A DNA stretch of 23,020 nt from Promethearchaeota archaeon (GCA_019058365.1 JAHPZE010000047.1:1-23020); one strand, 5' to 3'. Positions 719 to 16,526 are shown, counted from the first letter of the stretch. Numbers and translations are program-made. The notes: generated by a model not told the origin, from the sequence alone.

Positions 719-1552
719 CTAACCAAAATAGGTTAGAATTAATCCCAATATTTGACCCTCATGAGTTAAGCTAAATTTTTTTTGTCTACCATGGGTCTTC
801 TCATTTATGAAATTTCGTGCCTTTAATGCCTTAATGTGATGTCCATACTTCATTTTAATTGTCTTATCATATGCATCGTGTCCTAATTCTCTCAAAAGAT
901 TCATGAAAGTTATCATCTCTCCCTTATCTCCATTAGTCATTTTCCGTAGAGTTTTTAAAATGTCTTTTTTTTGTTCAGTTAGGACTTCTGTAGGATATAC
1001 AGGTACATCTACATTTTTGTAACTTTCTTTATTTTTTTTATAGGTAATTCCATATTTCTCATACTTTTCTTTTATCTCATTCTTACCGATATCTGGGCTA
1101 AATAAATCATTGACTGTATAATGGGATGCATCAATATAAAATAATTTTACTAAATCATGTTTAAATGAACCAACGTACATCGCAGCACTAACAAATAGTT
1201 TAGTTGAAGTCGAAACATTAATCCAAATTTCATCAGCATGATACTCATTAATTTCTTTTGAGATAATACGACATAATTCTTCAATAATTGGTTCTAGTTG
1301 AATGAGAACTGTTTCAATAACAATTGGGGTACAAATTAATGAATTAATAAAATGTTCATAAAGTTTATCAACAAATTTTTTTGCTATTTCTATCATCTCT
1401 TTATCAGGATCAGCCTCATTTGTTAATTCTTTAAAGCTTTTAAGTAAATATATTATATTACATGGGTGATGAACGACACCTTCTATAATTCTATCATATT
1501 CAAACCCCACCGGCGCTATTTGTACTTTTCTAGTCATTTTTCTTACCTTCAT
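719..1552 (-). CDS. DUF6293/HFX_2341-type transcriptional regulator (CARF/Csa3-like Rossmann domain + C-terminal winged HTH)
   Basis: N-terminal VQIAPVGFEYDRI, central IWINVSTSTKLF and VPVYP linker, C-terminal wHTH (HHIKALKARNFINEKTHGRQKKFSLTHEG). Confidence 0.8.
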   Translation of the reverse strand: MKVRKMTRKVQIAPVGFEYDRIIEGVVHHPCNIIYLLKSFKELTNEADPDKEMIEIAKKFVDKLYEHFINSLICTPIVIETVLIQLEPIIEELCRIISKEINEYHADEIWINVSTSTKLFVSAAMYVGSFKHDLVKLFYIDASHYTVNDLFSPDIGKNEIKEKYEKYGITYKKNKESYKNVDVPVYPTEVLTEQKKDILKTLRKMTNGDKGEMITFMNLLRELGHDAYDKTIKMKYGHHIKALKARNFINEKTHGRQKKFSLTHEGQILGLILTYFG

Positions 1553-1620: not shown

Positions 1621-1962
1621 ATGATGGTTAACAATAAATTAAAGTATATTCAACGGAGTATTTTACGTCCAAAACTTCAACATCGTTGTACGTGTTGTGC
1701 AAAAATATGTGTTAGATCTCAAGTACTAGTAAGTTTTGGTGTAAATGACTCTAATAATGAGCGAATATTATTAAAAGATTTAAAAGTTGAAGAAATTTCC
1801 ATAGATCATATATGGGTTAAATGTGAAGAATTAAATGATGTTAAGAGATATAGGAAAGGTCTTACTATTACTTTTACTGCTTTAATATCATCGTACCAAA
1901 AAATAGGTGGACGAGTAGGTATTGGTCTCTTTGATATAAAAGATATTGAAATTGAAAATTAA
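1621..1962 (+). CDS. Hypothetical protein, beta-rich (possibly OB-fold-like)
   Basis: 113-aa ORF with pattern ILLKDL..DHIWV..G..ITFTA.I.SY.K, resembling small uncharacterised mobile-element proteins. Confidence 0.55.
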   Translation: MMVNNKLKYIQRSILRPKLQHRCTCCAKICVRSQVLVSFGVNDSNNERILLKDLKVEEISIDHIWVKCEELNDVKRYRKGLTITFTALISSYQKIGGRVGIGLFDIKDIEIEN

Positions 1963-2080: not shown

Positions 2081-2860
2081 ATGTATTTCTATTTAAAAAC
2101 AGAAATCGAGAAAAATGCCCCTTTTAAAAATTACGTTGTAAAAAGGATACATTGTCCTACTTGTGGTAAAATACAAATAAAGAAAGTCTTCAAAAACCAC
2201 TTTTATACAAAATATAAATGCTGGAATAAAAAGTGTGAGAGAAAGGATATACCGTTTGTTCTAATTAATGATTATTTAAAAAATGAAAGTATCTTCAATG
2301 GCAAATGTGAGTTATGCAATCAAGAGTATTATCGTGAGTTTATAGAAAATGATGAGATCTGGGGTAAACTTATCTTTAAATGTACTAATGATAAATGTGA
2401 TGAATCAAATTATGAACTTTCTTATGATCTTGAAAATGAAGAATGGATAAAGAGAGATATCCTTTCAGATTGTGAATATCACTATATTCATTGGTATCTA
2501 TATAGAAATCCGGGTAAAAAAGAATTTGATATCCTCCATAACTATTTTTACGAAAAAGATTTTGTAATAGTAAAGGAAGATTCAGAAAAGAGTACTCTTG
2601 ATTATCGTAATTTCTTAGAAAATAATACTTCAATTCATTTCAAAATTTCTGTTAAACATTGGGGCTTTGGAATAAGCTGTCATAAAGACATAGAAATTCA
2701 TACAAAAGCAAAATTTGATAATCAAGCAATGAAAATCCTGTCAAAATTATATTTAATCCTTAAAGAAGAAAAATCTGGTAGATGTTTCATGCTTCCCAGA
2801 GAAAGTGAAAAATATAAACAATTTCTTAGAAATAAATTCAATTATAGAACAAATGGGTAA
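2081..2860 (+). CDS. Double zinc-ribbon protein with uncharacterised C-terminal domain
   Basis: Four Cys pairs: CPTC, CWNKKC, CELC, CTNDKC; stop lies 6 nt before the next start codon. Confidence 0.7.
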   Translation: MYFYLKTEIEKNAPFKNYVVKRIHCPTCGKIQIKKVFKNHFYTKYKCWNKKCERKDIPFVLINDYLKNESIFNGKCELCNQEYYREFIENDEIWGKLIFKCTNDKCDESNYELSYDLENEEWIKRDILSDCEYHYIHWYLYRNPGKKEFDILHNYFYEKDFVIVKEDSEKSTLDYRNFLENNTSIHFKISVKHWGFGISCHKDIEIHTKAKFDNQAMKILSKLYLILKEEKSGRCFMLPRESEKYKQFLRNKFNYRTNG

Positions 2861-2866
2861 ATAATA

Positions 2867-5803
2867 ATGAATTTCCTTAGGAGCTTAAGAGTTAAACTTA
2901 GAAAATATTTAAAAAAGTTAAAAAATAAGTTAAAAATATCAAGAGTTAAACCCGCTCTAAGCTTTACAATTAAACCTAATGAAAAGAAAGCAGAAGTAGT
3001 TCTAAAAAAGACAGAAGTTCCAAAAATAGAAATGGAACAATTAATAATACCAAAAAAAACACAAAAACCTTATATTAAAAAAACACCACCTAAATTAGGA
3101 AAAAAAGAGAAAAATAAAAAAAAAAGGAGTTCCTTAAGGAAAGAAAAAAAAGATCTCATAGTAGATTTGGGTAAAATATTCTCTAAATCTAGAAAAACCA
3201 AAAAAGGAAGAGAATCTGAAAGATTAAGAGTAGATAGCGAAATTCGGAAAGTTTCAACTGATATTCGTAGCCCATTTATAGAATTTAATTTTTCAGAAAT
3301 TACAATCAATTTGGTCATTCCTAAACAAATCATTAATTTAACTTCCCCTATTAGTTCAGTAGTCTATCATATAAAAATTAATGAAGATAATTTTAAGGAA
3401 ACTGCTAGTATAAAGCAATTAAATAACACCTATTATGAAGTAGAGAAACGAGAAATTGCATTGCATGAGCCTCTACAAAGTTTTCAAATAACATATCCAA
3501 TCTTATTTAAAAATGTAAAGTATAGTTTTAATTATTATCATAAAGATACTGATCTTTATATTTTTAGTGGACGATATCAAGATCGGGCTAAAATGATTGA
3601 GCTGTGGGATAAAGAAGGAAAATTAAATTTAATCCCTAAGAAGAAATTATGGATATTTCATCCCGATATTTATGAACTAGGAGTAGAATATAATTTAGCT
3701 GAAGATTTGTGGATCTGGAATTATAATACTCCTAAACTTGTAGATTTAAGAGAAAAATCCTTCATATATTTAAAAAATAGAGAGACTGGTCAACTAAAGA
3801 AATTTGCTTGTGATGTAAGTTTTCATCTTGAGGGTGAACAGACACCAAGCGACGACTTTGATGAAGAATTTCCATTATTTACAGGTAGAGAGATATCTCT
3901 AATCTCTCCTAGGATAAATCCAGATGGTTGGGTCATCTGGCTTCAAAATAAAGAAATTGGTTCATATAAACTTAATGACAACTGGAGTGGAGAAAATCCT
4001 TTTGTTCTAAAGTGCCATGAAGATCTAAGGATATTAGAAGGGACATTTCAACTAGATATTGCAGATAAGGGTATGAGAATACCAATTGAGACAATACATT
4101 TTCGTTATGCTTTTCATATAGAATGTGAATATCCAAGAGATTTAGTAATTCCTACCCGTGATGGACATAAAAATGAACTAGTATGTATTGGTTTAGAAGA
4201 ATCAATTGAAAATTGGAATATTTTAATAGATTCGGATGTACATATTAAAGAGGATTATGATAATAATCAGTATCAAATTATCATTCCTAAGATTCAAGAT
4301 ACTGTTAATTTTTCTTTAAAGAAAGATAAAAGTGACATTAAAAAATTAAATTTCGAAATTACAATTCCAAGATTAAAGTGGAGAATTGGGAATCAAAAAG
4401 AATGGACTGGTAAAATTTTGGAGAAGAATAGAAACACTTTAACAGCTGGAATTGACTTATTTTTAGAAGTAAATACCAATGATTATAACAACTCATATAA
4501 AATAATGATTCAATTATTTTCTGCTGAAAAAAACCAACTATTACAAGAAACCACACTTTCTATGGAGAATATTTATCATTCATGCAATCTAAATCGATTT
4601 TTTGATACAATTTTGACTAATTATAATCATTTATTTTTATCATTAGAAATAATTAATAGAACAACTGATAAAAGATATCCTCTAGTAAATATTTTAGAAT
4701 TTCCAGATAGAGATCCTATTAAAAGATTGTATAAATCTCTCTTAGAATTTCAAAGAGATAGAATTGAAGAATTCTATCAATATTACAAAAATTATTGTAG
4801 TAAAAACAATGAGACCAAAGAGTTTTCTGTCAATGAATTATTTGAGGTTTTAACTTTATCATTTAATCAATCAAAATCGTTAAAGGAAACAGGACTAATA
4901 TATAAATTATTATCAAAAATTAACGATACCTTCAGAAAAGGTTTTGAGAACAGTTTATTAGGATTATTTAAAAATATTATTTTGAAAATGGGAAATACAG
5001 GGATTGAAATTAAAGATAGAATAGAGTATTTAGAATTTTGTATTGATTTTGAAAACTATTTCGATATTCCACCTCCAAATACAAAAGATGTTTTAAATCT
5101 AATTTTAAAGAAAGAAATCAATGTAATTAATGATAATTATTTATATTATAATCGATTATGTAAAATTTTTAAGCCAGATATTTCCAATTTTGATGATATT
5201 CGTAAAAATCTATTTAAAAAGCAATTATATAAAGGAGTAAAAATATTAAAAAATGCGAATGATAATTTTAAAGATAATATGTATCTAAAATGTTGTGAAT
5301 CAAGTTACAAAGCAGCATTTATTATGCTCAAGGCGCTTCTATTTTTTGAGCACATATATCCAAAAGATAAATCTTATTTAAGCATTACTCAGATGTATTT
5401 AATTGCCTTTAGAGAGAATTTTAGTAAGTATTTAGATAATTTCAAAAAATTACGAGAGAAAAATTTTAATTTAAAACAAAACCATGCTTGGTATGCCTAT
5501 AAAAATTCCGAAAAGATTTTTAGGAAAATTAAACGACGTTATGATTTCATATACCCCCAACTTAAAAATCCTAAAAATCAAAAGACCAGTCTAGATAATT
5601 TTGAATGGCGCTTTCCTAAAAATGACATTCCAGATGTCATTAGATCTTATATTAAAAAAATTCAAAAATATAAAACAACATATCATTCAAATTTTTGTCC
5701 ACTTCCTCCAGGCTTAATAAAATTAGGTATTCGTGAAATAAATATTAGATATGATAAAGAAGAAATTCTCGTATATGGTCTACAAAAAAAAATGAGAAAA
5801 TAA
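2867..5803 (+). CDS. Large helicase-partner protein (Druantia DruH/DruF-like position) with Lys-rich N-terminus, beta-rich core and HEPN-like C-terminal domain
   Basis: 978-aa ORF directly upstream (15-nt gap) of a DUF1998 helicase; nt ~5228-5545 encode ILKNANDNFKDNMYLKCCESSYKAAFIMLKALL...FKKLR...AWYAYKNSEKIF, matching the helical HEPN pattern. Confidence 0.6.
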   Translation: MNFLRSLRVKLRKYLKKLKNKLKISRVKPALSFTIKPNEKKAEVVLKKTEVPKIEMEQLIIPKKTQKPYIKKTPPKLGKKEKNKKKRSSLRKEKKDLIVDLGKIFSKSRKTKKGRESERLRVDSEIRKVSTDIRSPFIEFNFSEITINLVIPKQIINLTSPISSVVYHIKINEDNFKETASIKQLNNTYYEVEKREIALHEPLQSFQITYPILFKNVKYSFNYYHKDTDLYIFSGRYQDRAKMIELWDKEGKLNLIPKKKLWIFHPDIYELGVEYNLAEDLWIWNYNTPKLVDLREKSFIYLKNRETGQLKKFACDVSFHLEGEQTPSDDFDEEFPLFTGREISLISPRINPDGWVIWLQNKEIGSYKLNDNWSGENPFVLKCHEDLRILEGTFQLDIADKGMRIPIETIHFRYAFHIECEYPRDLVIPTRDGHKNELVCIGLEESIENWNILIDSDVHIKEDYDNNQYQIIIPKIQDTVNFSLKKDKSDIKKLNFEITIPRLKWRIGNQKEWTGKILEKNRNTLTAGIDLFLEVNTNDYNNSYKIMIQLFSAEKNQLLQETTLSMENIYHSCNLNRFFDTILTNYNHLFLSLEIINRTTDKRYPLVNILEFPDRDPIKRLYKSLLEFQRDRIEEFYQYYKNYCSKNNETKEFSVNELFEVLTLSFNQSKSLKETGLIYKLLSKINDTFRKGFENSLLGLFKNIILKMGNTGIEIKDRIEYLEFCIDFENYFDIPPPNTKDVLNLILKKEINVINDNYLYYNRLCKIFKPDISNFDDIRKNLFKKQLYKGVKILKNANDNFKDNMYLKCCESSYKAAFIMLKALLFFEHIYPKDKSYLSITQMYLIAFRENFSKYLDNFKKLREKNFNLKQNHAWYAYKNSEKIFRKIKRRYDFIYPQLKNPKNQKTSLDNFEWRFPKNDIPDVIRSYIKKIQKYKTTYHSNFCPLPPGLIKLGIREINIRYDKEEILVYGLQKKMRK

Positions 5804-5818
5804 ATAGTGTGAGATAAA

Positions 5819-8800
5819 ATGCCAATTAATCCAATAGAATTAACAAAAGATATTCAACAAAATTATGCAAATTACCTTTCAGGTACCTTTTACATAAAAG
5901 ATCAGAATTTAAGGAATATAATTATTAAGGAAATTGAGAGTTATCCTTTCATAAAAGGACCTTATTTGGAGTCTATACCACCGTTTAAGAAGGGTGAATA
6001 CTTAAAAGATTTTATCAAAAAGGGTCTTCTTAGCAATATTTTTACAAATTTTATCTACGAGGCTCTTCCTTACCTAAGAGATAATCCATTATATCTGCAT
6101 CAAGATAAAGCAATTCGGAAATTATTAGATAATCGTAATTTAATCATATCTTCAGGTACGGGTAGTGGTAAAACAGAATGTTTTCTTATTACAATCTACA
6201 ATCATCTGTTAAGAGAATACGAGGAGAACATGTATCTTGAACCCGGAGTTCGTGCTTTATTACTATATCCTATGAATGCATTAGCAAATGATCAATTGAG
6301 AAGACTTAGAGAAATAACAAAAGTGATGGAGGAAAAAATCCCAGACGTAAAAATTACATTTGGTAGGTATACAGGAGATACTAAAGATGAAAGTAGAGAG
6401 AGTGCAACACAAAGATTCATGCAGAGATTTCCTAATCAAACTCCCGCTGAAAACGAGCTTCTAACAAGGGGAGAAATGCAAGAAACACCTCCACATATTC
6501 TTATAACAAATTATGCAATGTTGGAATATTTACTTATAAGACCTGGTGATAAGAAATTTTTTGACGGGGAATATGCAAAAAGTTGGAAATTTCTTGTATT
6601 GGATGAGGCTCATATTTATAATGGAGCAAAGGGTATAGAAATGGCTTTACTGATCCGACGCTTAAAAGATAGAGTTTGTAAAAATATGAAAGGAGATTTG
6701 CTGTGCATAGCTACAAGTGCTACCTTAGTATCCGAGGCTGAAGACTATACTAAGGTAACGAAGTTTGCAAGCGATTTATTTGGAGAACTCTTTGAATGGG
6801 ATGAAAATGAAAAAAATAAGCAAGATATTATAGAAGGTAAAAGATTGGATATAGAATTAAGTCAAGCTACAGAAAGTTTCCCTCTTAATATCTACTCCTC
6901 TTTACATTCTCTAATTTTTGAGGAAAGTATTGATAAGGTACAAAGTATATATGACATGCTTAAAGAGCAAGGTATCGAAAAAGAGATTTTAGAAGTCGCA
7001 AGAAAGGAATCAAACAGAGATCTAAAAAAGTTTGTTTATAATTTTCTGGCTTTTGATAAGCGAATTTTGGATTTAAAAATGATATTAAAAGATGGTTCTA
7101 AAGATCTTGACAAATTTATGAAAATTATTTTACAAAAGGAAAATCCAAGTAAAACTGAAAGACAATCAATTATAGACCTAATTAATCTTTCTGTATGGGC
7201 AAAGATAGATGATGATTCCCTACCTTTACTACCTGCACGGTATCATCTTTTTATCCGGGCTCCAGAAGGTATTTTTATATCTTTTTATCCAACCGAACAA
7301 ATCTTTTTGGAAAGGAGAGAAGAAACACATGATAAAAAACCCGTATTTGAATTGGCTGCATGTAGGCGATGTGGTCAAGAATATTTTGTTGGCTTTATTA
7401 AGGATAATGAGTTAAAGCATAGTTTTTCGGAATTACCTCTGTCTGAAAGAGGAAATGATAAGATTACTAATCAATATTTTATCTTTTGGCCAAAAAGTAT
7501 CGAATTCGAGGAGGATGAGGATCAAGAAATCTCACTCCCGGAAGACCTTTCAATAAAAGGGGAACAGTGGGAATTATGTATAAAATGTGGAAGGATTTAT
7601 AAAAATGATGAGCTAAAATGTAAATGTCAAGATGATGTTCCTATAAAGCGTACTTTAATAGAAATAAAACCAAAAAATATAGAATTAAATAAATGCTATT
7701 CATGCAGTCATCGTTCTCCATTTGGGATTGTTAGGAAGTTTATATTTAATCAGAATGATTTAAATTCTGTTTTAGTAACGGTACTATATCAAAATCTAAA
7801 TAAAACTATTATTGAGAATAATGAATTAAAAAAAATTCTGGCCTTTTCCGACAGTCGACAAGGAGCAGCATATTTCGCTCCTTTTTTGCAAGCTGAATAT
7901 GATAAAATCTTGTTCCGTAGGCTTATCATTAAAGCTTTAGATGCAAATATTAAATATAAGGATTATGGGTTATCCTCCTTATATCAGGATGTTTCGATGC
8001 TAGCTCGAAATTATAATTTGCTTGAACATAATCTTGATGATAAACAAAGGTCACAAATCGTATGGAGATGGATAATTCATGAATTTTGTGCTTTATTTGA
8101 TAATAAGCGTAATTCGCTAGAAAGAGTTGGTATGCTTTTCTTTAAACCATCAACACCTAAGAACTGGGTGCCTCCCCCTGAATTGTTAAACCCACCTTGG
8201 AGTCTTACCGAGCAAGAAGTGATCAATCTTTATTATTTTCTACTGAACACTATGAGATATAATTTTGCAATCACTTTGCCAAGTGAAGTCGGATTAGATC
8301 CTTCCGATGCCTTTTTCAGACCTCTTAATAAAGAATATAAATTTCGTGGTGAAATTTCAGATTCAAAGAAACATATCCATTCTTTTATACCTTCAAAAAG
8401 ATATCTGAATAGCAGATTGGATATTGTAAAAAAATTATTTAATAAAATAGTCAATAGAAACGATGAAGATAATGAATACAAGAAAATTTTGGGAATAATT
8501 TGGAATGATTTAAGATCTAATTGGAGAGGACACGGTATTTTTGGATTTAATATACCTAAAGAAGGAATTGTATTTCAATTAGATCATAATTATTGGAGGG
8601 TGGTAAGACGACGCCAAGATGAACAATGGTACTTTTGCGACAAATGCGGGATTATCTTACCTTTTTCAGTTAGGGGTGTTTGTCCTACTTTTAATTGTTT
8701 GGGAGAAGTAAGAATAATCGATACTGAATTTGAAAAATCTCTAAAATATAATTTTTATAGAACCATGTACAGTAAATTTAATCCAATAAAAATGATCAGT

Positions 8801-11146
8801 CAAGAACATACCGCTCAATTAACTTCAGATTATGCTACAGAGGTTCAGCAAAAATTTATTGACGGAGATATTAACATTTTAAGTTGTTCTACTACTTTTG
8901 AATTGGGAGTTGATTTAGGTACTTTAGAGGCCATTTTTTTACGTAATGTACCCCCTGAACCTTCAAATTACGTCCAACGAGCTGGTAGGGCGGGAAGACG
9001 ATTGGATACAATCGGATATACAATAACTTTTGCTCATTTAAGATCTCATGATCTTTCATACTTTAAAACTCCAGAAAAAATGATAGATGGAAGAATTAAA
9101 CCCCCAGAACTCTCCCTTACAAATCAAAAAATTGTTCGACGACATATTCATTCGATTGTTTTAGCTAAATTCTTTCAACTATACGAAAAATTGTATGGAA
9201 GTATAGAAAGTTTTCTTCATCTGAGTGAAGATTTTTCAGGAATTCAACTACTAAAAGATTATTTAGAATCTAAGCCTCAATCGATTCTGACTTCTATAAA
9301 GAGAGTTGTACCAGAACTCGTGAAACAGTATTTTTGTCTAGACACATGGGAATGGGTAGAAGGATTAGTCGGAAGAAATGGTACATTAACAACTGCTGAA
9401 GAAAAGATAACGCTTGAGTATGATTTTTTATCGGATTATTATAACCAAAAACAACAGCAGTGGATTAAGACTTCAAATCAGGATGAAAAGGACAAATTTA
9501 ACAGTGATATGAGATGGGCTAATAAAAGAATTGAAACAATTAAGAAAAAAAACTTAATCGATTTTTTAGCTTCAAATACAGTCATTCCGAAATATGGATT
9601 CCCCGTAGATGTTGTAGATCTACTAGTACTCTCCAAAAGCCCTGCTGCAAAACAAATTGAATTAGAGCGAGACCTAAGAATTGGATTATCTGAATTTGCT
9701 CCTGGAAGTGAAGTCGTAGCGAATAAATATATTTGGAAAAGTGAAGGTCTCAGAGTTCTCCGTAACAGGACGTGGACCATTTATTGGTATGCAATATGCC
9801 CTTATTGTGAACGAATATTTATGGAATTGGGGTCTTTAAAAGAAAAACCCCCCAAAATCTCATGTAATATTCATGGTTCTTTAAATAAATATAGATATCG
9901 ATTTATAATTCCAGAATTTGGATTTACTACAAATATTCAAACTCCGCCTAGAAATGCAGCTTTGTTTCGACCAAGAAAACAGTTTACCACAAGACCTTAT
10001 TTCTATGATTACGGTGAGGTTGAACAGAAAGAGATTTCTATTAAAAAGCTTAAGATTAACATAAAATATGGAAAGCACGGTGAATTAGCAGTTATATGTA
10101 AAGGTAAGGAAGGAGTTGGATTCCGTATATGCCCTTCGTGTGGTGCTGCATTTGCGTATGACAAAAGACTTACTAGCACTCATATATCTCCTTTTGGCTG
10201 GGAATGTAAACGTACGGTTTTTGGACCTAGAATACATTTAGGTCATAAATTTATGACAGATGTAGTTTCTTTAACCTTCATTAAACCTCAAATAAGGGAA
10301 AATCAATATTTTGGTCTTTCACTCCTTTATGGCGTTCTTCAAGGAATAAGTAAAGGATTAGGAATTAAAAGAAATGATCTTGATGGATGTTTACACCAAA
10401 CAAAAGAGGGAATGGTGTTAATTCTGTTTGATAACGTGCCAGGGGGCGCGGGACATGTTAGAAGACTATTACAAGAAGAGAATTTATATAAAGTTTTTGA
10501 AAGTACATTAAGTGTATTAGAAAACTGTTCATGCGGTCCTGAGACCAGCTGTTATAGCTGCTTGAGAAATTATCAAAATCAGTTTTGCCACCATCTTTTA
10601 AGAAGGGGGTTAGTCTCAAAATTTCTTAAAGATTATCTAGGCTATGAAAAAGAGAAGAAAAAACAAAAAGAAATAGATGATAAACTTTTAGTCAGCATTG
10701 GAAGGCAAGGGGAACAAAATGCTTATAACTATATAAGAAAATTAAAAATAGAAGAATTAAGGGTGGATGAGGATCCAGAAACAATTATTATTGATAAAAA
10801 GGATGGATTTATAATTAAATGTCAAGAGAAGGAATTAATTGATGTAACATGGGAAAATGCTATTGAAGAAAAATATAAGGGTTATGATATTAGTTATAGG
10901 GACGATAATAAAATAAAACATTATATAGAAGTAAAATCCACCACCTCCTCTTCAAGAAGCTGGTTTAATATTACTGAAAACGAATGGAAATATTTCTTAG
11001 ATAAAAAAGAGAGGTATTTTATATTCAGAGTATATAATGTCGAATTGGGAAAATTAAATAATGAAAATATCGAGATCATTAAAAATCCGTATAAAGAATG
11101 GATTGAGGGTAAAATAATGGCATATCCATATAAATTAGAGATATAA
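5819..11146 (+). CDS. DEAH-box SF2 helicase (YprA/MrfA/DruE-like) with DUF1998 Zn domain and C-terminal DUF3883-type PD-(D/E)XK nuclease
   Basis: Helicase motifs: Q LYLHQ, I GTGSGKTE, Ia YPMNALANDQ, Ib ILITNYAMLE, II LDEAH, III ATSAT, IV AFSDSRQ, V STTFELGVDLG, VI YVQRAGRAGRR. DUF1998: FDNVPGGAG...CSC..SCYSCLRNYQNQ. DUF3883: IGRQGEQNAY...GYDISY...YIEVKST...ITENEW. Confidence 0.9.
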   Translation: MPINPIELTKDIQQNYANYLSGTFYIKDQNLRNIIIKEIESYPFIKGPYLESIPPFKKGEYLKDFIKKGLLSNIFTNFIYEALPYLRDNPLYLHQDKAIRKLLDNRNLIISSGTGSGKTECFLITIYNHLLREYEENMYLEPGVRALLLYPMNALANDQLRRLREITKVMEEKIPDVKITFGRYTGDTKDESRESATQRFMQRFPNQTPAENELLTRGEMQETPPHILITNYAMLEYLLIRPGDKKFFDGEYAKSWKFLVLDEAHIYNGAKGIEMALLIRRLKDRVCKNMKGDLLCIATSATLVSEAEDYTKVTKFASDLFGELFEWDENEKNKQDIIEGKRLDIELSQATESFPLNIYSSLHSLIFEESIDKVQSIYDMLKEQGIEKEILEVARKESNRDLKKFVYNFLAFDKRILDLKMILKDGSKDLDKFMKIILQKENPSKTERQSIIDLINLSVWAKIDDDSLPLLPARYHLFIRAPEGIFISFYPTEQIFLERREETHDKKPVFELAACRRCGQEYFVGFIKDNELKHSFSELPLSERGNDKITNQYFIFWPKSIEFEEDEDQEISLPEDLSIKGEQWELCIKCGRIYKNDELKCKCQDDVPIKRTLIEIKPKNIELNKCYSCSHRSPFGIVRKFIFNQNDLNSVLVTVLYQNLNKTIIENNELKKILAFSDSRQGAAYFAPFLQAEYDKILFRRLIIKALDANIKYKDYGLSSLYQDVSMLARNYNLLEHNLDDKQRSQIVWRWIIHEFCALFDNKRNSLERVGMLFFKPSTPKNWVPPPELLNPPWSLTEQEVINLYYFLLNTMRYNFAITLPSEVGLDPSDAFFRPLNKEYKFRGEISDSKKHIHSFIPSKRYLNSRLDIVKKLFNKIVNRNDEDNEYKKILGIIWNDLRSNWRGHGIFGFNIPKEGIVFQLDHNYWRVVRRRQDEQWYFCDKCGIILPFSVRGVCPTFNCLGEVRIIDTEFEKSLKYNFYRTMYSKFNPIKMISQEHTAQLTSDYATEVQQKFIDGDINILSCSTTFELGVDLGTLEAIFLRNVPPEPSNYVQRAGRAGRRLDTIGYTITFAHLRSHDLSYFKTPEKMIDGRIKPPELSLTNQKIVRRHIHSIVLAKFFQLYEKLYGSIESFLHLSEDFSGIQLLKDYLESKPQSILTSIKRVVPELVKQYFCLDTWEWVEGLVGRNGTLTTAEEKITLEYDFLSDYYNQKQQQWIKTSNQDEKDKFNSDMRWANKRIETIKKKNLIDFLASNTVIPKYGFPVDVVDLLVLSKSPAAKQIELERDLRIGLSEFAPGSEVVANKYIWKSEGLRVLRNRTWTIYWYAICPYCERIFMELGSLKEKPPKISCNIHGSLNKYRYRFIIPEFGFTTNIQTPPRNAALFRPRKQFTTRPYFYDYGEVEQKEISIKKLKINIKYGKHGELAVICKGKEGVGFRICPSCGAAFAYDKRLTSTHISPFGWECKRTVFGPRIHLGHKFMTDVVSLTFIKPQIRENQYFGLSLLYGVLQGISKGLGIKRNDLDGCLHQTKEGMVLILFDNVPGGAGHVRRLLQEENLYKVFESTLSVLENCSCGPETSCYSCLRNYQNQFCHHLLRRGLVSKFLKDYLGYEKEKKKQKEIDDKLLVSIGRQGEQNAYNYIRKLKIEELRVDEDPETIIIDKKDGFIIKCQEKELIDVTWENAIEEKYKGYDISYRDDNKIKHYIEVKSTTSSSRSWFNITENEWKYFLDKKERYFIFRVYNVELGKLNNENIEIIKNPYKEWIEGKIMAYPYKLEI

Positions 11147-11477: not shown

Positions 11478-11891
11478 TTATCTTTTTATAAGTTTACCAC
11501 ATATAGGGCATTCATACCAGTTAAATTCTTTTAATAGAATCATTATTTCGTTGCATTTTGTACAATAAATCCCTGATATTTTGTTTTCACTGGCATTTTT
11601 TGGAGATTCAGAGCTTGATATATGATTCTTTTTCGAGAACTTTATTGATGGTTTTAATTGAAATATTGTTACTCCATTATCAGAAAAGTCTTTACTGATT
11701 ATTATATGCCCATTCTGATTAGCATCGTTTAAAAAAATGTCTGAACGGATATGGTCTCTTATTCTAGTACCATGTTTATGCCCATGTATTATTTCTAACA
11801 TATTATCTCCAATTTCCTTACATTCATCAAATTTGAACATTATCTCATCTATTGCATCTTTTAAAAAGAGCTTATGTACATCTAGTTTCAT
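11478..11891 (-). CDS. Smr (MutS2 C-terminal-like) domain protein with C-terminal zinc ribbon
   Basis: MKLDVH...A...LEIIHGHKHGTRIR...NGVTIF Smr pattern; C-terminal CTKC...WYECPICG. Confidence 0.8.
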   Translation of the reverse strand: MKLDVHKLFLKDAIDEIMFKFDECKEIGDNMLEIIHGHKHGTRIRDHIRSDIFLNDANQNGHIIISKDFSDNGVTIFQLKPSIKFSKKNHISSSESPKNASENKISGIYCTKCNEIMILLKEFNWYECPICGKLIKR

Positions 11892-11940
11892 TTCGCTTGG
11901 ATTTATGGATTATTGTATAATATTAGTCAATTTTATCTAT

Positions 11941-12006
11941 ATTCTATTTTGATTTCCTACCAATATAAATTTTAGTGTATAAATTCAAGAGTAGGGAATC
12001 TAGAAT
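11941..12006. other. Intergenic imperfect inverted repeat / stem-loop
   Basis: ATTCTA(tttt)GATTTCCTAC - 30 nt - GTAGGGAATC TAGAAT. Confidence 0.45.
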
Positions 12007-12017
12007 AACTAAATTAC

Positions 12018-13121
12018 TTAATTTTTAATATTCATTGCTTTTTTAAGATAGTCCTCAAGGTTTTCTCGACAATCTTCAGTGAGCGTAAATTTTTTAGCAG
12101 ATTGAGAAATCAATAATCTAATTTCTATTAATTTTTCAATCGCATTAGCTAATTTTCTATTAGAATAAGACAATATTCCTTCTTTTTTGGCAGAACGTAA
12201 AAGGTTATGTAAATAACTATATTTATGTTCCTGCTTATCCTCATTTTTACCAGTGGTATAGGCATTTATAATTATTTCGAATATTTTTCGCCAGTCTTCT
12301 TTATCAATTATATCTTTAAGATTGGGGCTTAATTCTGATTCTACATGAGGATCTTCCTCAGGTAGGAAAATTTCCATAAAACCTTCAATAATTTCTGTTT
12401 TTATCTTCCCCTTTTCTTCTGCTGCTGCTACGAATTTGCTAAAAGAATTAAAAGTTTTTGTCTTATCATCTGGTTCTTGAACCATTGATGCTCCTTTATA
12501 ATCAAAATTCGAAGAACTTCGCATTAGATTATCTATTAAGGCACTTCGCGTCGTTTTACTGTTTTCTCTTGCAAGTTGTATAGTCTCTATTAACCAATCT
12601 ACTGCAGTATCAAAGGGAATTGGCTTTTCTTTTTTTTTAAATATCTTAATTTTTGAAAAATCTCGAGCTTTATACATTTTAGAAAGTTCTCCAAGAGAAA
12701 GAAAATCATCAGCACTTAATAATAAATGCTCACTTATATTATGGGTATCACCAATTATTATAACTTTTCTACGATTTGCTTTAAGAGCATTCACTAATGA
12801 AATAAAATCCTTATCACCTGTTAATAATATGAAACAATTAATTTCAGGATATAATTGAGCAGTTTCAAGACAATCAACAGCAATTTTTACATCTACACTA
12901 TTCGGTTTTCCCATAGATACTTGAATCGCATCAAATCCCAAACTATAGAGGGCTTGAATAATCTCTTTATTAATTCCTGCCCAATCTGAATAAACTTTTT
13001 TTACTCGAAGGTGACCTAGTGATTCAGAGTATTTTATTAAAGCTTCTGCGATAGGTACATTAATACCTTTTGCTACTACTCGAACATTTTCATAGTCCCA
13101 AAAAATAGCTACTTCATCCAT
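12018..13121 (-). CDS. NYN (LabA/DUF88, PIN-like) ribonuclease with C-terminal LOTUS/OST-HTH-like and wHTH-like domains
   Basis: AIFWDYENV, VYSDW, KPNSVDVKIAVD, LLTGDKDFISLV, LLLSADDF; later FNSFSKFVAAAEEKGKI is LOTUS-like. Confidence 0.85.
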   Translation of the reverse strand: MDEVAIFWDYENVRVVAKGINVPIAEALIKYSESLGHLRVKKVYSDWAGINKEIIQALYSLGFDAIQVSMGKPNSVDVKIAVDCLETAQLYPEINCFILLTGDKDFISLVNALKANRRKVIIIGDTHNISEHLLLSADDFLSLGELSKMYKARDFSKIKIFKKKEKPIPFDTAVDWLIETIQLARENSKTTRSALIDNLMRSSSNFDYKGASMVQEPDDKTKTFNSFSKFVAAAEEKGKIKTEIIEGFMEIFLPEEDPHVESELSPNLKDIIDKEDWRKIFEIIINAYTTGKNEDKQEHKYSYLHNLLRSAKKEGILSYSNRKLANAIEKLIEIRLLISQSAKKFTLTEDCRENLEDYLKKAMNIKN

Positions 13122-13410
13122 ATATAAAACTTCTTTTGATTATTACTGTTGAATATTTTTATCTTAACATAGTAACAATTATCTGAATTTTTATATTTAT
13201 TTCATGTTTTGGTTTAAAAACCATAATCTCCTATTTTCGAAATCTAATATGATAAATAAAATAACAATATTATATAGATAAAAATAAATAATTTCAACGA
13301 ATTAGGGATAACCTGAATCCTACCAATCACCGAGATAGAATAAAAGGATGTTTTTATGTATTAGGATTAATATGAATTGAATAATATTAAATACATTCTA
13401 CATTAAGAAC

Positions 13411-15300
13411 TTAATTGATGATTTTTTGTTTTAATATATTAGATATTACATCATCAGTATCTTTTATTTTCTTATTTTCTTCTATTTTATCTTTTAATTT
13501 AAATAGTCTTACTTTAGCTATATTAATTACATTCATATATGTTTTAGCTTCAATAATTATATTTCTCTCATTTAAATTTTTACCAGCAACATATTTCCCA
13601 ATTTTTGTACCCAGAACATAACAAATGATACCATCTCTACTTTCAAGATGCCCTTCCTCATCTAAATATAGGCAATAATCTTCAGCTTGATGCATATTAT
13701 CTTTATTTAAAGTCGAACCTCCTTTTTTGAGTTCTAAAATTAAAATTTTTCCTACTCCTTCTGGTTCTCCTTTTAGACTGTATTTATCAGTAGAATATAT
13801 CCCTAGTGAAAAATCGTTTGGTATAATAACAAAATCTGGTCTATCCAATATTTTGTTTTTATATTTTTTGTTAAAAAATCTTTTAATAACAGTAATTAAT
13901 GGTTTATTAGATGTATATTGAATTGTATCATATTCTGGTCCAAAAATCCATAATGCTTTTTCAAAGATTGGTTGAAGTTCATGTAACTCATCAGATAGAC
14001 GCTCAGTAAGCACTTCCAAATTCTCTATAAAATCAATTCTACGATAAATCTCAGTAAGAATTATTTTTGCATCTCTTATACTCCAATTTGATAATATTTC
14101 ATTAAGATCTTCAAGTTCCGCTGTTTCTAATTTAGCTAAATTGCTCAATAAATCATATCTTATATTACTTTTCTCAAGATTTATGAGAATCTTCAACAAA
14201 TTCTCTAGATCACTATCATTCAAGTGGGGACAATTTGTTAGGACTTGATCTATAAAAGTACCAATAAAATCTCTTGAATTAATATCTAAGTTATGTAATT
14301 CACGGATTTCAGCTTGTAAAATATTAAATTTTCTCTCTGTTTTTTTTTTCTGAAATAAAGAATCGAGTTTTTTTATTAAATAATCAGATAATTCCTTATG
14401 AATTGCCTTATAACGCTTAGTTTCCTCAAATCCAGTCCAATCGTCTTTAACATCTTCTTGTAGAAAATCTGCGATGATAATAAACACATATTCACGAGCT
14501 TCTCGATATCTTCGATCTAATTTCTCTCCTTCCGCTATTGTCCAAGTAAGGTTACCTACTGTACGATTATTAACCCACCATTGGATTCCATTCTGTTGTG
14601 CTGTTCTTCCTCTCTTAGTTTTAATAATTTTAATCTTAACATCTCCAAATTCAGTAGGTATATTTTCATCAATAATTAAATGTCCTATATCCTCCTCTGT
14701 TATAATATTCCCATTAACATATTTTGTAAAGGAAGGATCTGAAAAGAATTTTGAACCAATTAAATTAATAACCATTTTCTCATTTAACGACAAAATTTTC
14801 TTTAAATTAGTAGAGATTCTCGTTCCAGTCTTCTTATCACTAATCTCCTTATCTTCTACTAAGTGTTCGATATCAAAGGGTTGATTTTTTTGTTCAACCT
14901 TAAATTTATTGTAAAAACCATTTTTACATGTCTCTACGATATATGAATTAGAAAAGCAATACATTGCAAATCTACCTTTTCCATTTCTTCCATAAGCAAC
15001 TCGATTAGCAGGCGTTCCATCAGGAAAGAAAACTTCATTGCCTTGATGCTTTTCCCTGTCATAGCCTATTCCACTCCATCGATAAATAAATTCTTCTTTT
15101 ATCATTCCATTACCATCATCACTAATAATAAAGCTCCTTTCTTCATCATTTCCAATAGTAATGTATACATTTCTAGCTCCTGCATCATAACAGTTAGCAA
15201 TTAGCTCAATTATTGCAATTTCCCAGTTATTTATGATGTTTCGTGCAAAACCCTTAACAAATCTGGAACCAAACCAATTAGTTATTTGTTTAGTAGACAT
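13411..15300 (-). CDS. GHKL (MORC/HATPase_c_3-like) ATPase fused to a C-terminal PD-(D/E)XK nuclease
   Basis: GHKL boxes IIELIANCYDA, ISDDGNGM, GRNGKGRFA, TGTRI; nuclease motifs LWIFGPEY, RPDFVI, ILILELKK, QAEDY. Confidence 0.85.
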   Translation of the reverse strand: MSTKQITNWFGSRFVKGFARNIINNWEIAIIELIANCYDAGARNVYITIGNDEERSFIISDDGNGMIKEEFIYRWSGIGYDREKHQGNEVFFPDGTPANRVAYGRNGKGRFAMYCFSNSYIVETCKNGFYNKFKVEQKNQPFDIEHLVEDKEISDKKTGTRISTNLKKILSLNEKMVINLIGSKFFSDPSFTKYVNGNIITEEDIGHLIIDENIPTEFGDVKIKIIKTKRGRTAQQNGIQWWVNNRTVGNLTWTIAEGEKLDRRYREAREYVFIIIADFLQEDVKDDWTGFEETKRYKAIHKELSDYLIKKLDSLFQKKKTERKFNILQAEIRELHNLDINSRDFIGTFIDQVLTNCPHLNDSDLENLLKILINLEKSNIRYDLLSNLAKLETAELEDLNEILSNWSIRDAKIILTEIYRRIDFIENLEVLTERLSDELHELQPIFEKALWIFGPEYDTIQYTSNKPLITVIKRFFNKKYKNKILDRPDFVIIPNDFSLGIYSTDKYSLKGEPEGVGKILILELKKGGSTLNKDNMHQAEDYCLYLDEEGHLESRDGIICYVLGTKIGKYVAGKNLNERNIIIEAKTYMNVINIAKVRLFKLKDKIEENKKIKDTDDVISNILKQKIIN

Positions 15301-15596
15301 TATAATAGATAAAAAGTATTTTTTTAGTTATTTACTATTTTTGTCTATATTATAATATTATTGGATATAATATAAATTAGATTTGTTAATTAAATTTCTA
15401 ATTTAGGTTCTTAAATTTAAGTAATCATATATTAGGGTTTATATCCTACAAATTTATAATAGAAAAGTTCATTCCATCCCTACTTTTTTAGGAGGGGCAA
15501 CACGGGGGAGGGAAATCCTCAGGAAATTTCAAGAAGTTCTGAAACAATAGAGGTATTTGGATGCGTTTTTAGGAGGAATTACTTGTTTTATTTTAT

Positions 15597-16526
15597 TTAA
15601 GGAACCTTATCCACTCCAATCATATATATATTTTTAAATTCATAATATCTAAGGTCTTTAATTAAATCGGAGCTGCGACTATTCCACCATATTTTTTTTT
15701 TATTCCAAATATCAATACCTTTTTGAATTTTTTTATTAATATCTGGTTCAACTATCACAGTGTTTCCATTTAATGCCCAACCCTTTTCTAAGTTAATATC
15801 AATAAAACCAGCGACAAAACATAAATTCGAGAATTTCATTGTTCTTGAGATAATGCCGTCAATCGCTATAGCATTATTATCTAATTTGAAATGCACTTTT
15901 TTATACCATAATTCTGCTTTTATCTCAATAGGATATTTTTTTGCATTTATATCCAATAAAATCTTTCTTAATTTTTTTCTAATTATGATTTTTTGGTGGT
16001 AAGCTTCAATGTCCCAAGCAAATGGATCACCGGATAACCATTCATTATCAATTATTTTAATTAATTTATTATTTTGATCATCAAATATTTTAACAGATAT
16101 TTGTAGATAGCCATCCTCAGAAATTCTAATAAGGAAAAGATTTTCATTATCAACTCTTATAAAATCTCCATTTCCAATGAAAAGATTACTTCCAGTTGAA
16201 ATAACAAGGTCTTCTTGATTAATTTTCAATAATCCCTTAGTATATCCACGTTGAATATTGAAAGGATTTTCTTTATATCTTCTTTGTTCATCCTCACTCA
16301 TTGCTCCGTCTGTCGCTTCAAAATGACAATAGGGGCATAGACACATCATATCTTCTGGTCTAAAATGTGGATCATCATCAGTATAAGGAATTATGTGATG
16401 ATATTCTATTATTGGCTTACCACATTTACAACATCCAAATCCCGATTCTTGTCTTAATTGTCTCTTTATAGACAAAGGTGTTGGTGGTCTTTTTTTACTT
16501 TTTTCGCTCAAATTTTCCCTTACCAC
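15597..16526 (-). CDS. HNH endonuclease (N-terminal) with beta-rich C-terminal domain
   Basis: LRQESGFGCCKCG..IIEYHHIIP...MMCLCPYCH. The true start may be TTG at 16511, about 29 nt downstream of a TTTATATA box at 16540-16547. Confidence 0.85.
   Translation of the reverse strand: MVRENLSEKSKKRPPTPLSIKRQLRQESGFGCCKCGKPIIEYHHIIPYTDDDPHFRPEDMMCLCPYCHFEATDGAMSEDEQRRYKENPFNIQRGYTKGLLKINQEDLVISTGSNLFIGNGDFIRVDNENLFLIRISEDGYLQISVKIFDDQNNKLIKIIDNEWLSGDPFAWDIEAYHQKIIIRKKLRKILLDINAKKYPIEIKAELWYKKVHFKLDNNAIAIDGIISRTMKFSNLCFVAGFIDINLEKGWALNGNTVIVEPDINKKIQKGIDIWNKKKIWWNSRSSDLIKDLRYYEFKNIYMIGVDKVP

What the first reader, a model, noticed from the sequence alone, without database searches (positions are those of the whole stretch)
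2081..11146. Candidate new Druantia/YprA-helicase-like defence system: Zn-ribbon protein + HEPN-fused partner + helicase-DUF1998-DUF3883
Seen: three co-oriented genes with 6-nt and 15-nt gaps. Established: a large helicase-DUF1998 gene preceded by a ~1000-aa partner is the layout of type III Druantia (DruH-DruE), and DUF1998 helicases also underlie DISARM (DrmAB). Inferred: this variant carries an extra effector-like domain on each large subunit (HEPN-like on the partner, DUF3883 nuclease on the helicase), adds a Zn-ribbon third gene, has no methyltransferase in the window, and sits in a probable Asgard archaeon. I do not recognise this combination as a named system.
Basis: partly seen in the sequence, partly recalled or inferred. 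Interest (0 to 1): 0.85.

Follow-up and report, generated by a model that had tools for sequence, protein, structure and literature searches.

The report
Asgard Druantia-like two-gene defence variant
An Asgard archaeon carries a rare version of the two-gene Druantia-type anti-virus system, in which the big helicase has a different DNA-cutting tail and its partner an extra, probably inactive, RNase-like domain; the small zinc-finger gene in front does not belong to it.

Summary
The three co-oriented genes and their 6- and 15-nt gaps are real. The 1775-aa protein is a DruE-family (YprA/MrfA-type) helicase: DEAD, Helicase_C, MZB/DUF1998, plus a C-terminal NOV_C/DUF3883 PD-(D/E)xK domain with an intact E..D..ExK core. 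The 978-aa protein has a disordered Lys-rich N-terminus, about five Ig-like domains, a helical module, a HEPN fold lacking the Rx4-6H motif, and a small tail.

Every helicase locus at 50% identity or more whose upstream DNA was held (14) has a homologue of the partner's Ig-like core directly upstream. The unit is therefore a two-gene partner plus DruE-like module with the Druantia type III layout. It is patchily spread in archaea and bacteria.

The NOV_C helicases form one small clade (five sequences), and all pair with partners carrying the extra C-terminal module.

The Zn-ribbon gene is not a component: its 68% and 50% homologues lie elsewhere without the system, and three NOV_C-type loci from more distant relatives lack it.

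No partner matches PADLOC's DruH models, and the helicase scores only at cross-type level on DruE types I-IV.

Verdict: a new variant of a known kind, not a new system. Function is inferred, not tested. The scan noted HEPN-bearing partners of Druantia-like helicases in two other genomes.

The parts
2867..5803 (+). Partner gene (978 aa, P0002), DruH-like in layout. It belongs to a family always found directly upstream of this helicase clade.
   Evidence: ORF. 86 cluster representatives match at E<=1e-10. A homologue lies directly upstream on the same strand in all 14 helicase loci with upstream DNA. AF2 model has mean pLDDT 85.
2867..3256 (+). Partner residues 1-130: one N-terminal helix, then a Lys-rich, predicted disordered region. 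No globular N-terminal domain.
   Evidence: pLDDT is below 50 for residues 23-63, 72-91 and 106-127. The sequence shows Lys runs.
3257..4711 (+). Partner residues 131-615: an array of about five Ig/FnIII-like beta-sandwich domains. This is the conserved core of the partner family.
   Evidence: All-beta in the model with pLDDT mostly above 90. Foldseek and VIA hits are multi-Ig receptors, S-layer proteins and macroglobulin domains. BLASTP gives 31-34% identity, E 1e-75 to 1e-88, to partners of the compact helicases.
4715..5200 (+). Partner residues 617-778: a helical module with the invariant FKN.I(L)..G motif. The same module is fused after tandem PLD nuclease domains in other proteins.
   Evidence: Alignment A2. 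P0203, P0207, P0212 and P0220 have PLDc_2 x2 followed by this module. No fold match.
5201..5554 (+). Partner residues 779-896: a HEPN-fold domain. His873 is conserved in the close family, but there is no conserved Arg, so Rx4-6H is absent here (N-x6-H).
   Evidence: Pfam PF05168, E 8e-6. 2hsb at E 3.8e-5. VIA Z 12.3, rmsd 2.6 over 110 residues to 1wol. Motif check.
5591..5788 (+). Partner residues 909-974: a small alpha/beta tail domain, present only in P0002, P0004 and P0006.
   Evidence: Model secondary structure. Alignment A2.
5819..11146 (+). DruE-family YprA/MrfA-type SF2 helicase with a C-terminal nuclease domain (1775 aa, P0003).
   Evidence: PADLOC DruE1 E 5.9e-201 (669 bits) and DruE3 552 bits. 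Pfam domains. Walker A GSGKT at residue 115 and DEAH at 262. Best PDB sequence match is 9tu7, a 2108-aa DEAD/DEAH helicase, E 3e-71.
10334..10564 (+). MZB/DUF1998 zinc-binding domain of the helicase (residues 1506-1582).
   Evidence: Pfam PF09369, E 3.1e-11. Includes the CYSC motif at residue 1578.
10691..11143 (+). NOV_C/DUF3883 PD-(D/E)xK nuclease domain (about residues 1625-1775). GRQGE(1632), YD(1690)IS and IE(1704)VK(1706)ST are invariant in the four members aligned.
   Evidence: Pfam PF13020, E 1.7e-14. PADLOC TmtA C-terminus, E 9e-23. Alignment A3. Positions.
2081..2860 (+). Double Zn-ribbon gene (259 aa, P0001). It is adjacent and possibly co-transcribed here, but it is not a conserved component of the system.
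   Evidence: It is present before the pair only in the 80%-identical loci L005 and L006. Its homologues in L008 (68%, next to DarT/Macro) and L007 (50%, next to rpL35Ae) have no helicase or partner nearby. L003, L004 and L009 lack it.
719..1552 (-). HFX_2341-like regulator (HFX_2341_N plus winged helix), transcribed divergently. It is a candidate regulator of the locus.
   Evidence: Pfam PF19810 E 3e-15 and DUF6293_C. The genome has only two copies. Family members lie upstream of the pair in L003, L004, L005 and L006. HFX_2341 represses cas genes in Haloferax (PMC11434293).

Best explanation
Genes 2867-5803 and 5819-11146 form a two-gene anti-virus or anti-plasmid module of the Druantia type III-like kind. 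The helicase (shown: a DruE-family SF2 helicase with an MZB domain and intact Walker A and DEAH motifs) is inferred to load on exposed single-stranded or forked foreign DNA and translocate, as published for type III DruE. Its C-terminal NOV_C PD-(D/E)xK domain (shown: catalytic E..D..ExK conserved) is inferred to cut the DNA, taking the place of the PLD nuclease domains of type III-A DruE. The partner (shown: an Ig-like array followed by a helical C-terminal region, always encoded directly upstream) is inferred to play the DruH role of DNA-binding sensor or scaffold that licenses the helicase-nuclease. Its extra C-terminal module, a helical domain plus a HEPN fold, accompanies the NOV_C domain in all five NOV_C loci. 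It lacks the HEPN catalytic arginine, so I infer it is a regulatory or nucleic-acid-binding add-on rather than an RNase. The upstream Zn-ribbon gene is a neighbour, not a component. The divergent HFX_2341-like gene may regulate transcription of the locus.
For: DruE family: PADLOC DruE1 669 bits, DruE3 552 bits, with DEAD, Helicase_C and MZB. Conserved pair: all 14 loci with a complete helicase at 50% identity or more and upstream DNA have a P0002-core homologue directly upstream on the same strand, and BLASTP between partners gives E 1e-75 to 1e-88. The partner family has 86 representatives at E<=1e-10. The partner's Ig-like array plus C-terminal helical region matches the published description of DruH as six Ig-like domains between helical domains (10.64898/2026.05.13.724313; 10.64898/2026.05.12.722862). 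The NOV_C active-site residues are invariant in the four members aligned, which are 44-58% identical over this C-terminal stretch. The five NOV_C helicases form one clade with support 100, sister to the compact clade, and all five pair with partners carrying the C-terminal module. None of the ten compact loci aligns with P0002 past residue 701. Defence context: neighbouring genes in the loci include McrBC, PLD, pAgo with SIR2, AAA_15/21, type I R-M and, here, NYN, HNH and a GHKL ATPase. Sporadic distribution: 3 of 400 Asgard genomes and 0 of 53 congeners have a close helicase; 2 of 101 have the partner. Published mechanism for type III: DruE is a helicase-nuclease acting on ssDNA or forked DNA, and DruH is an ssDNA binder or 3'-5' exonuclease (10.64898/2026.05.13.724313, 10.64898/2026.05.13.724758, 10.64898/2026.05.12.722862, 10.64898/2026.05.12.724681).
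Against: There are no functional data for this clade; defence is inferred from homology and context. The partner shows no detectable sequence relation to DruH. PADLOC found no DruH hit for P0002, for 8 further partners or for 50 family members. hhalign of the family profile against E. coli DruH gave probability 0.2%. The partner lacks DruH's globular N-terminal domain, where one group places the exonuclease site. The helicase scores only at the level seen between Druantia types: E. coli DruE scores 2695 bits on its own model and 541 on DruE1. The link between NOV_C and the C-terminal module rests on a single evolutionary event. Archaeal viruses and their replication intermediates may differ from the phage substrates studied.
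Confidence: 0.72

Rival explanations
1. One reading: a new three-gene system in which the Zn-ribbon protein is an obligate third subunit alongside the HEPN partner and the helicase.
For: The gap between the Zn-ribbon gene and the partner gene is 6 nt on the same strand. The same order is kept in L005 and L006.
Against: L005 and L006 are close relatives (80-90% identity), so their synteny says little. L003 (partner 52% identical) has a pAgo gene at that position, and L004 and L009 have no homologue. Homologues of the Zn-ribbon protein at 68% and 50% identity sit beside DarT/Macro and beside rpL35Ae, with no helicase or partner within the 8-20 kb fetched. None of the compact-clade loci gave a tblastn hit (one search covers L010-L012).
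Confidence: 0.06
2. A dual-nuclease abortive-infection system. The partner's HEPN domain is an active RNase that degrades host or viral RNA once the helicase senses foreign DNA, while NOV_C cuts DNA.
For: The HEPN fold is well supported. His873 is conserved in the close family, and two relatives (P0006, P0007) have an Rx6H arrangement. Unchecked scan notes report HEPN modules beside other Druantia-like helicases.
Against: In this protein the residue seven positions before His873 is Asn. No Arg is conserved across the seven family members at either possible register. The PLD-fused relatives lack even the His. Many HEPN domains are non-catalytic.
Confidence: 0.12
3. A housekeeping DNA-repair helicase-nuclease of the MrfA/YprA kind, with an accessory protein, rather than a defence system.
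For: The YprA family includes repair helicases such as MrfA (PDB 6znp, matched at E 2.4e-16).
Against: The best matches are DruE models and solved DruE-type helicases, not MrfA. The distribution is sporadic: 3 of 400 Asgard genomes and 0 of 53 congeners. The clade mixes archaea and many bacterial phyla. Defence genes flank it in several loci.
Confidence: 0.05

Closest known systems
Druantia type III-like / III-B (DruH plus a compact DruE without PLD domains; Bell et al. 2025, 10.1101/2025.09.15.676423; Himpich et al. 2026, 10.64898/2026.05.13.724758)
   Same: A two-gene layout with a large partner of no annotated domains directly upstream of a DruE-family helicase. The compact helicases mostly end after the MZB domain. 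Bell et al. state that some members of the branch carry a PD-(D/E)xK (Vsr-type) nuclease instead of PLD or nothing.
   Different: I could not place P0003 on their tree, because the reference GIH50614.1 was not obtainable, so identity of the clades is not shown. Here the PD-(D/E)xK domain is typed NOV_C/DUF3883 by Pfam. The partner carries a C-terminal helical plus HEPN module that the papers I read do not mention. The host is an Asgard archaeon.
Druantia type III-A (E. coli or P. aeruginosa DruH-DruE; PDB 9tu7, 9tud)
   Same: Gene order and helicase core (DEAD, Helicase_C, MZB). The partner is built from an Ig-like domain array followed by a helical C-terminal domain. The helicase carries a C-terminal nuclease.
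   Different: The E. coli DruE is 2114 aa with PLD-type nuclease domains and scores 2695 bits on PADLOC DruE3, against 552 for P0003. E. coli DruH scores 1830 bits on DruH3, against no hit for P0002. P0002 has no globular N-terminal domain and about five rather than six Ig-like domains.
Druantia type I DruE (PADLOC PDLC00013)
   Same: It is the best-scoring PADLOC model (669 bits over profile positions 261-1701 of 1776) and is similar in length. Bell et al. report a C-terminal PD-(D/E)xK-type (inactivated Vsr) domain in type I DruE.
   Different: PADLOC found no type I accessory among the two upstream genes scanned; the other flanking genes were scanned with Pfam only. The score is at cross-type level. 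The nuclease motif here is intact.
DISARM (DrmA, DrmB, DrmC and a methyltransferase)
   Same: A YprA-family helicase with a DUF1998 domain. DrmA models give weak hits (E 2.4e-15).
   Different: Here the helicase and DUF1998 are fused in one protein. The window has no methyltransferase and no PLD DrmC.
Tiamat TmtA and other DUF3883-tailed defence ATPases
   Same: The C-terminal NOV_C/DUF3883 domain matches the TmtA C-terminus (E 9e-23, residues 1610-1774).
   Different: Only the nuclease tail is shared; the ATPase or helicase body is unrelated.

Membership tests
Druantia (any type): DruE signature helicase | A large YprA/MrfA-like SF2 helicase with a RecA core plus an MZB/DUF1998 domain that matches DruE models | tested here: met
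   PADLOC DruE1 E 5.9e-201, DruE3 7.2e-166, DruE2 and DruE4 also hit. Pfam DEAD, Helicase_C and MZB.
Druantia types I-IV as modelled in PADLOC | The helicase scores like a bona fide member of one type | tested here: not met
   P0003 scores 669 (DruE1), 552 (DruE3), 428 (DruE2) and 365 (DruE4) bits. A true III-A DruE scores 2695 on DruE3 and 541 on DruE1. Relatives P0013, P0014, P0018, P0038 and P0053 behave like P0003.
Druantia type III | A two-gene operon with a large partner directly upstream of druE | tested here: met
   The gap is 15 nt here. The partner homologue lies directly upstream in 14 of 14 loci.
Druantia type III | The partner is a DruH by sequence | tested here: not met
   No PADLOC DruH hit for P0002, for 8 further partners or for 50 family members. 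hhalign of A1 against E. coli DruH gave probability 0.2%. The positive control, E. coli DruH, scores 1830 bits.
Druantia type III | The partner has DruH architecture: N-terminal globular helical domain, six Ig-like domains, C-terminal helical domain | tested here: inconclusive
   The model shows about five Ig-like domains and a helical C-terminal region, but a disordered N-terminus in place of a globular domain. DruH (9tud) did not appear among the fold-search rows, and I could not superpose the model on it directly.
Druantia type III-A | DruE C-terminal PLD-like nuclease domains | tested here: not met
   No PLDc hit; NOV_C instead.
Druantia type III-B / III-like branch of Bell et al. | The helicase falls in that branch of the YprA tree | not testable with these tools
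   The reference sequence GIH50614.1 and their tree are not available here. The description (compact; no nuclease or a PD-(D/E)xK nuclease; DruH-like partner only) fits.
Druantia type I | DruA-DruD accessory genes | tested here: inconclusive
   PADLOC found none among the two upstream genes scanned (P0001, P0002). The other flanking genes were scanned with Pfam only.
DISARM | Split DrmA and DrmB, a methyltransferase, and a PLD DrmC | tested here: not met
   The helicase and DUF1998 are fused. Pfam finds no methyltransferase or PLD in the window.
HEPN superfamily | The four-helix up-down HEPN fold | tested here: met
   VIA Z 12.3, 12.2 and 11.9 to 1wol, 2hsb and 1ufb (110-113 residues, rmsd 2.4-2.6). 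The top 12 rows are nearly all HEPN proteins. Pfam score is above its cut-off.
HEPN RNases | A conserved Rx4-6H catalytic motif | tested here: not met
   The sequence here is N866-x6-H873. In the register aligned to AF0298 the Arg position is K870. No Arg is conserved across the seven family members.
NOV_C/DUF3883 PD-(D/E)xK nucleases | The Pfam domain plus the E..D..(D/E)xK catalytic core | tested here: met
   PF13020 scores 54 bits against a cut-off of 22. E1632, D1690, E1704 and K1706 are invariant in the four members aligned.

The most novel reading that the evidence does not exclude
The partner family is a second, sequence-unrelated lineage of 'DruH-like' Ig-array proteins that current defence-finder models miss. 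It swaps C-terminal nucleic-acid modules: HEPN here, Alba in the ~1400-aa forms, and basic eL13-like tails in compact forms. The helical plus HEPN module, which is also fused behind tandem PLD nucleases in stand-alone proteins, would be a portable nuclease-licensing adaptor that was acquired together with the NOV_C nuclease and gates it in trans.
Probability: 0.2. Interest if true: 0.6.

Novelty: new variant of a known kind. Interest (0 to 1): 0.42.

Why it matters
Druantia was largely a black box before the 2025-2026 studies, and all of that mechanistic work is on bacterial type III-A. This locus shows that a related partner-plus-helicase module also occurs in Asgard archaea. It shows that the nuclease end of the helicase is exchangeable: PLD, none, or NOV_C. 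It also shows that the partner changes its C-terminus in step with the helicase. The partner family has about 100 clusters at 50% identity and is invisible to PADLOC's DruH models, so such systems are probably under-counted in archaea and uncultured bacteria. The co-acquired NOV_C and HEPN modules offer a natural experiment on how partner and helicase communicate.

Tried and rejected
(1) Complex prediction of the partner C-terminus (A2) with the helicase NOV_C region (A3) gave no verdict (score 0.09). I do not count it either way.

(2) The look-up of sequencing runs listed no RNA holder, so co-transcription of the three genes could not be examined.

(3) ESM Atlas searches gave nothing usable: by features for P0001 (best 0.80) and for P0002 612-785, and by shape for the C-terminal model (TM below 0.3).

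(4) Foldseek and VIA searches of the whole P0002 model listed only generic Ig-like arrays. DruH (9tud) was not among the rows. I do not know whether 9tud is in that library, which holds entries released up to 2026-04-08.

(5) hhalign of the partner profile against single sequences of E. coli DruH and of the C. butyricum 1069-aa partner found no relation. A profile against a single sequence has low sensitivity.

(6) The supplements of Bell et al. held as text list ARMADA type I, but no Druantia rows, for Promethearchaeia, so they did not settle the clade.

(7) The profile of the partner family hits eukaryotic ribosomal protein eL13 weakly (E 7.6e-5). This lies in the basic C-terminal tails of compact partners, not in P0002. 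I treat it as compositional.

(8) I did not run the sigma-70 promoter scan, because archaeal promoters are not covered.

(9) I considered ARMADA, BRIGADE and TALON. No BrxHII-like helicase, PglX methylase, deazaguanine genes or TPR-CSD/TBP genes are in the window.


Full report
**Observation.** The ORF listing confirms three + strand ORFs at 2081-2860 (259 aa), 2867-5803 (978 aa) and 5819-11146 (1775 aa), with gaps of 6 and 15 nt (translations).
- The helicase carries DEAD, Helicase_C, MZB/DUF1998 and NOV_C/DUF3883 by Pfam. The partner carries a HEPN domain at residues 789-885.
- The 259-aa protein has no family match, but it has two C4 zinc-ribbon motifs.
- Pfam scans of the window's 14 ORFs of 113 aa or more found no methyltransferase.
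- The genome (4.74 Mb, 54 contigs; the window is a whole contig) has six Actin-family hits, the best at 441 bits. Homologues are labelled Promethearchaeia, Thorarchaeota and Hodarchaeota. An Asgard (Lokiarchaeia-type) origin is therefore well supported. Unchecked scan notes say the same.

**The helicase.** PADLOC places P0003 in the DruE family: DruE1 669 bits, DruE3 552, DruE2 428, DruE4 365.
- As calibration I fetched an E. coli type III-A locus (L031). Its DruE scores 2695 bits on DruE3 and 541 on DruE1. Its DruH scores 1830 bits on DruH3.
- P0003 therefore scores at the level seen between types, and so do its relatives. It is a DruE-family helicase outside the four modelled types.
- The closest solved sequences are the 2108-aa and 1970-aa DEAD/DEAH helicases 9tu7 and 9wae, and then MrfA/YprA.
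- Walker A (GSGKT, residue 115) and DEAH (residue 262) are intact.

**Relatives of the helicase.** The protein-collection search listed only three other helicases that keep the NOV_C tail: P0012 (72%), P0013 (Hodarchaeota, 56%) and P0014 (marine sediment, 55%). A fifth, 89.5% identical, is encoded in L005/L006.
- Behind them lies a very large set of ~1600-aa helicases, 46-56% identical over 91% of the length, that end after the MZB domain. They come from Asgard lineages, Methanofastidiosia, Archaeoglobus, Methanophagales and many bacterial phyla.
- In a FastTree tree built on columns that exclude the tail, the five NOV_C helicases form one clade (support 100). This clade is sister to the compact clade. 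A Methanobacteriota helicase, a Clostridium butyricum helicase and E. coli III-A DruE lie outside.
- The NOV_C domain keeps the PD-(D/E)xK core (GRQGE, YDIS, IEVKST) invariant in the four members aligned, which are 44-58% identical over this C-terminal stretch. It matches the C-terminus of Tiamat TmtA.

**The partner.** P0002 has few full-length relatives: P0004-P0008, and P0138, the L009 partner.
- Its residues ~40-620 match about 100 cluster representatives, 86 of them at E<=1e-10.
- The genes directly upstream of the compact helicases in L010, L011 and L012 are 31-34% identical to this core (E 1e-75 to 1e-88).
- By tblastn, all 14 loci with a complete helicase at 50% identity or more and upstream DNA have such a gene directly upstream on the same strand. 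The 38%-identical L020 does not. The conserved unit is therefore partner plus helicase.

**Partner structure.** An AlphaFold2 model built on 101 sequences has mean pLDDT 85. It shows:
- one N-terminal helix and a disordered Lys-rich stretch (residues 23-127);
- an all-beta region (131-615) that Foldseek and VIA match to multi-Ig, FnIII and macroglobulin arrays;
- a helical region (617-891);
- a small alpha/beta tail (909-974).

Folded alone, the C-terminus gives clear HEPN matches for residues 779-896: 1wol Z 12.3, 2hsb 12.2, 1ufb 11.9, followed by sacsin HEPN, Csm6, HEPN toxins and AbiV. Residues 617-778 and the tail match nothing.

**HEPN motif.** The canonical Rx4-6H motif is not present. 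His873 is conserved in the close family, but the residue seven positions before it is Asn here. It is Arg only in P0006 and P0007. In the register aligned to AF0298 the Arg position is Lys870, and that position is variable. I read the HEPN domain as degenerate.

[quoted passage not shown] Its fold searches likewise return only ICAM- or NCAM-like Ig domains.
- One group reports a 3'-5' exonuclease activity. The other reports ssDNA binding that ATP inhibits (10.64898/2026.05.13.724313; 10.64898/2026.05.12.722862).
- P0002 shares the Ig array and the helical C-terminal region but lacks a globular N-terminal domain.
- No sequence relation is detectable. PADLOC DruH models miss P0002, 8 further partners and 50 family members. 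hhalign against E. coli DruH gives probability 0.2%.
- 'Works like DruH' is therefore a reasonable inference. 'Is a DruH' is not shown.

**Linked fusions.** All five loci with a NOV_C helicase (the window, L003, L004, L005/L006, L009) have partners with the C-terminal helical plus HEPN module.
- In the ten compact loci the match to P0002 ends by residue 582-701.
- This association is one event on the tree, so it is suggestive only.
- The same module follows tandem PLD nuclease domains in stand-alone proteins (P0203, P0207, P0212, P0220).
- Other partner forms carry an Alba domain and sit beside a split DruE-like helicase, a UvrD-type helicase and a Schlafen-like helicase.
- The partner's C-terminus is thus a variable slot for nucleic-acid-related modules.

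**The Zn-ribbon gene.** It has seven homologues.
- It precedes the pair only in L005 and L006, which are 80-90% identical to the window.
- In L008 (Thorarchaeota, 68%) it lies beside DarT/Macro, together with a homologue of the window's 113-aa ORF (1621-1962).
- In L007 (Promethearchaeia, 50%) it lies beside rpL35Ae. Neither locus has a helicase or partner.
- L003 has a pAgo gene in that position. L004 and L009 have no homologue.

**Context and distribution.**
- The window also encodes an HFX_2341-like regulator transcribed divergently (719-1552). It is one of only two copies in the genome. Family members lie upstream of the pair in L003, L004, L005 and L006. HFX_2341 represses cas genes in Haloferax (PMC11434293).
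- Flanking genes in the loci include McrBC, PLD, pAgo with SIR2, AAA_15/21 ATPases, type I R-M and, here, NYN, a GHKL ATPase and HNH genes.
- Close helicase homologues occur in 3 of 400 Asgard genomes and in none of 53 congeners. The partner occurs in 2 of 101 genomes.
- This patchiness, and the mix of archaea and bacteria in the clade, fit a mobile defence module.

**Comparison with the literature.** Bell et al. 2025 (10.1101/2025.09.15.676423) describe a phylogenetically distinct 'Druantia Type III-like' (III-B) branch. Its helicases occasionally carry PLD domains, in other cases a Vsr-type PD-(D/E)xK nuclease, and most often none. Himpich et al. describe III-B as DruE plus DruH with a compact DruE.
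- The clade found here fits that description.
- I could not test identity with it, because the reference sequence and tree are not available to the tools.
- The papers I read do not mention HEPN, DUF3883 or Asgard members in this context.

**Verdict.** This is a Druantia type III-like two-gene module. The helicase's nuclease is NOV_C rather than PLD, and the partner carries an added helical plus degenerate-HEPN module. It is a new variant of a known kind, not a new three-gene system.
- The proposed mechanism is that the helicase loads on exposed or forked foreign DNA, that NOV_C cuts it, and that the partner senses or licenses. This is inferred from type III-A work and is untested here.
- The complex prediction gave no verdict and no RNA data were found.

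Noticed in passing
window 11478-16911 (- strand): A run of minus-strand genes downstream of the helicase: a weak Smr-like gene (137 aa), NYN (367 aa), a GHKL/HATPase_c_3 protein (629 aa), HNH (309 aa) and a 138-aa ORF. It looks like further defence-island content, but I did not analyse it as a system.
   Followed up: no
window 18032-22852 (- strand): A 1606-aa protein with a caspase (Peptidase_C14) domain and bacterial TSP3 repeats. It is probably a surface protein unrelated to the finding.
   Followed up: no
window 1621-1962 and L008:1406-1714: The 113-aa ORF upstream of the Zn-ribbon gene has a 53%-identical homologue next to the Zn-ribbon homologue in a Thorarchaeota contig, beside DarT/Macro. 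The two small genes may therefore form their own pair, independent of the Druantia-like module.
   Followed up: partly
L003:5397-7757 and L003:2531-3730: In the 52-72%-identical locus a pAgo (Piwi, 786 aa) sits directly upstream of the partner gene, and a SIR2_2 gene lies nearby. This is a different defence neighbour in the slot occupied here by the Zn-ribbon gene.
   Followed up: no
L004:17342-20548: In the marine-sediment locus a 1068-aa gene with a weak AAA_16/STAND-like hit overlaps the stop of the NOV_C helicase. It is a possible third gene in that lineage only.
   Followed up: partly
P0009, P0010, P0139, P0163, P0165, P0185 (contig): These ~1400-aa partner-family proteins have a duplicated Ig-like region and a C-terminal Alba domain. 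They are encoded after a split DruE-like helicase (a Helicase_C protein of at least 1550 aa, cut at the locus end, plus a 744-aa MZB protein), a UvrD-type helicase and a Schlafen-like helicase. This is another architecture of the same partner family.
   Followed up: partly
P0203, P0207, P0212, P0220; L033:3239-5650: These stand-alone proteins have two PLD nuclease domains followed by the same helical (FKN..G motif) module as P0002 617-778. In P0203 and P0207 the match runs on through P0002's HEPN region (to residue ~890). The module appears to be undescribed.
   Followed up: partly
L010:5717-8020 and profile A1: The C-terminal tails of compact-clade partners give weak hits to eukaryotic/archaeal ribosomal protein eL13 (Pfam weak hit; PDB profile search E 7.6e-5). 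This may be a basic RNA- or DNA-binding tail, or compositional bias.
   Followed up: no
L032:2783-10668 (Clostridium butyricum megaplasmid pNPD4_2): A two-gene pair of a 1069-aa hypothetical protein and a 1559-aa DruE-family helicase. This partner also matches no PADLOC model and does not match the A1 profile. It suggests further unmodelled partner lineages around compact DruE helicases.
   Followed up: partly
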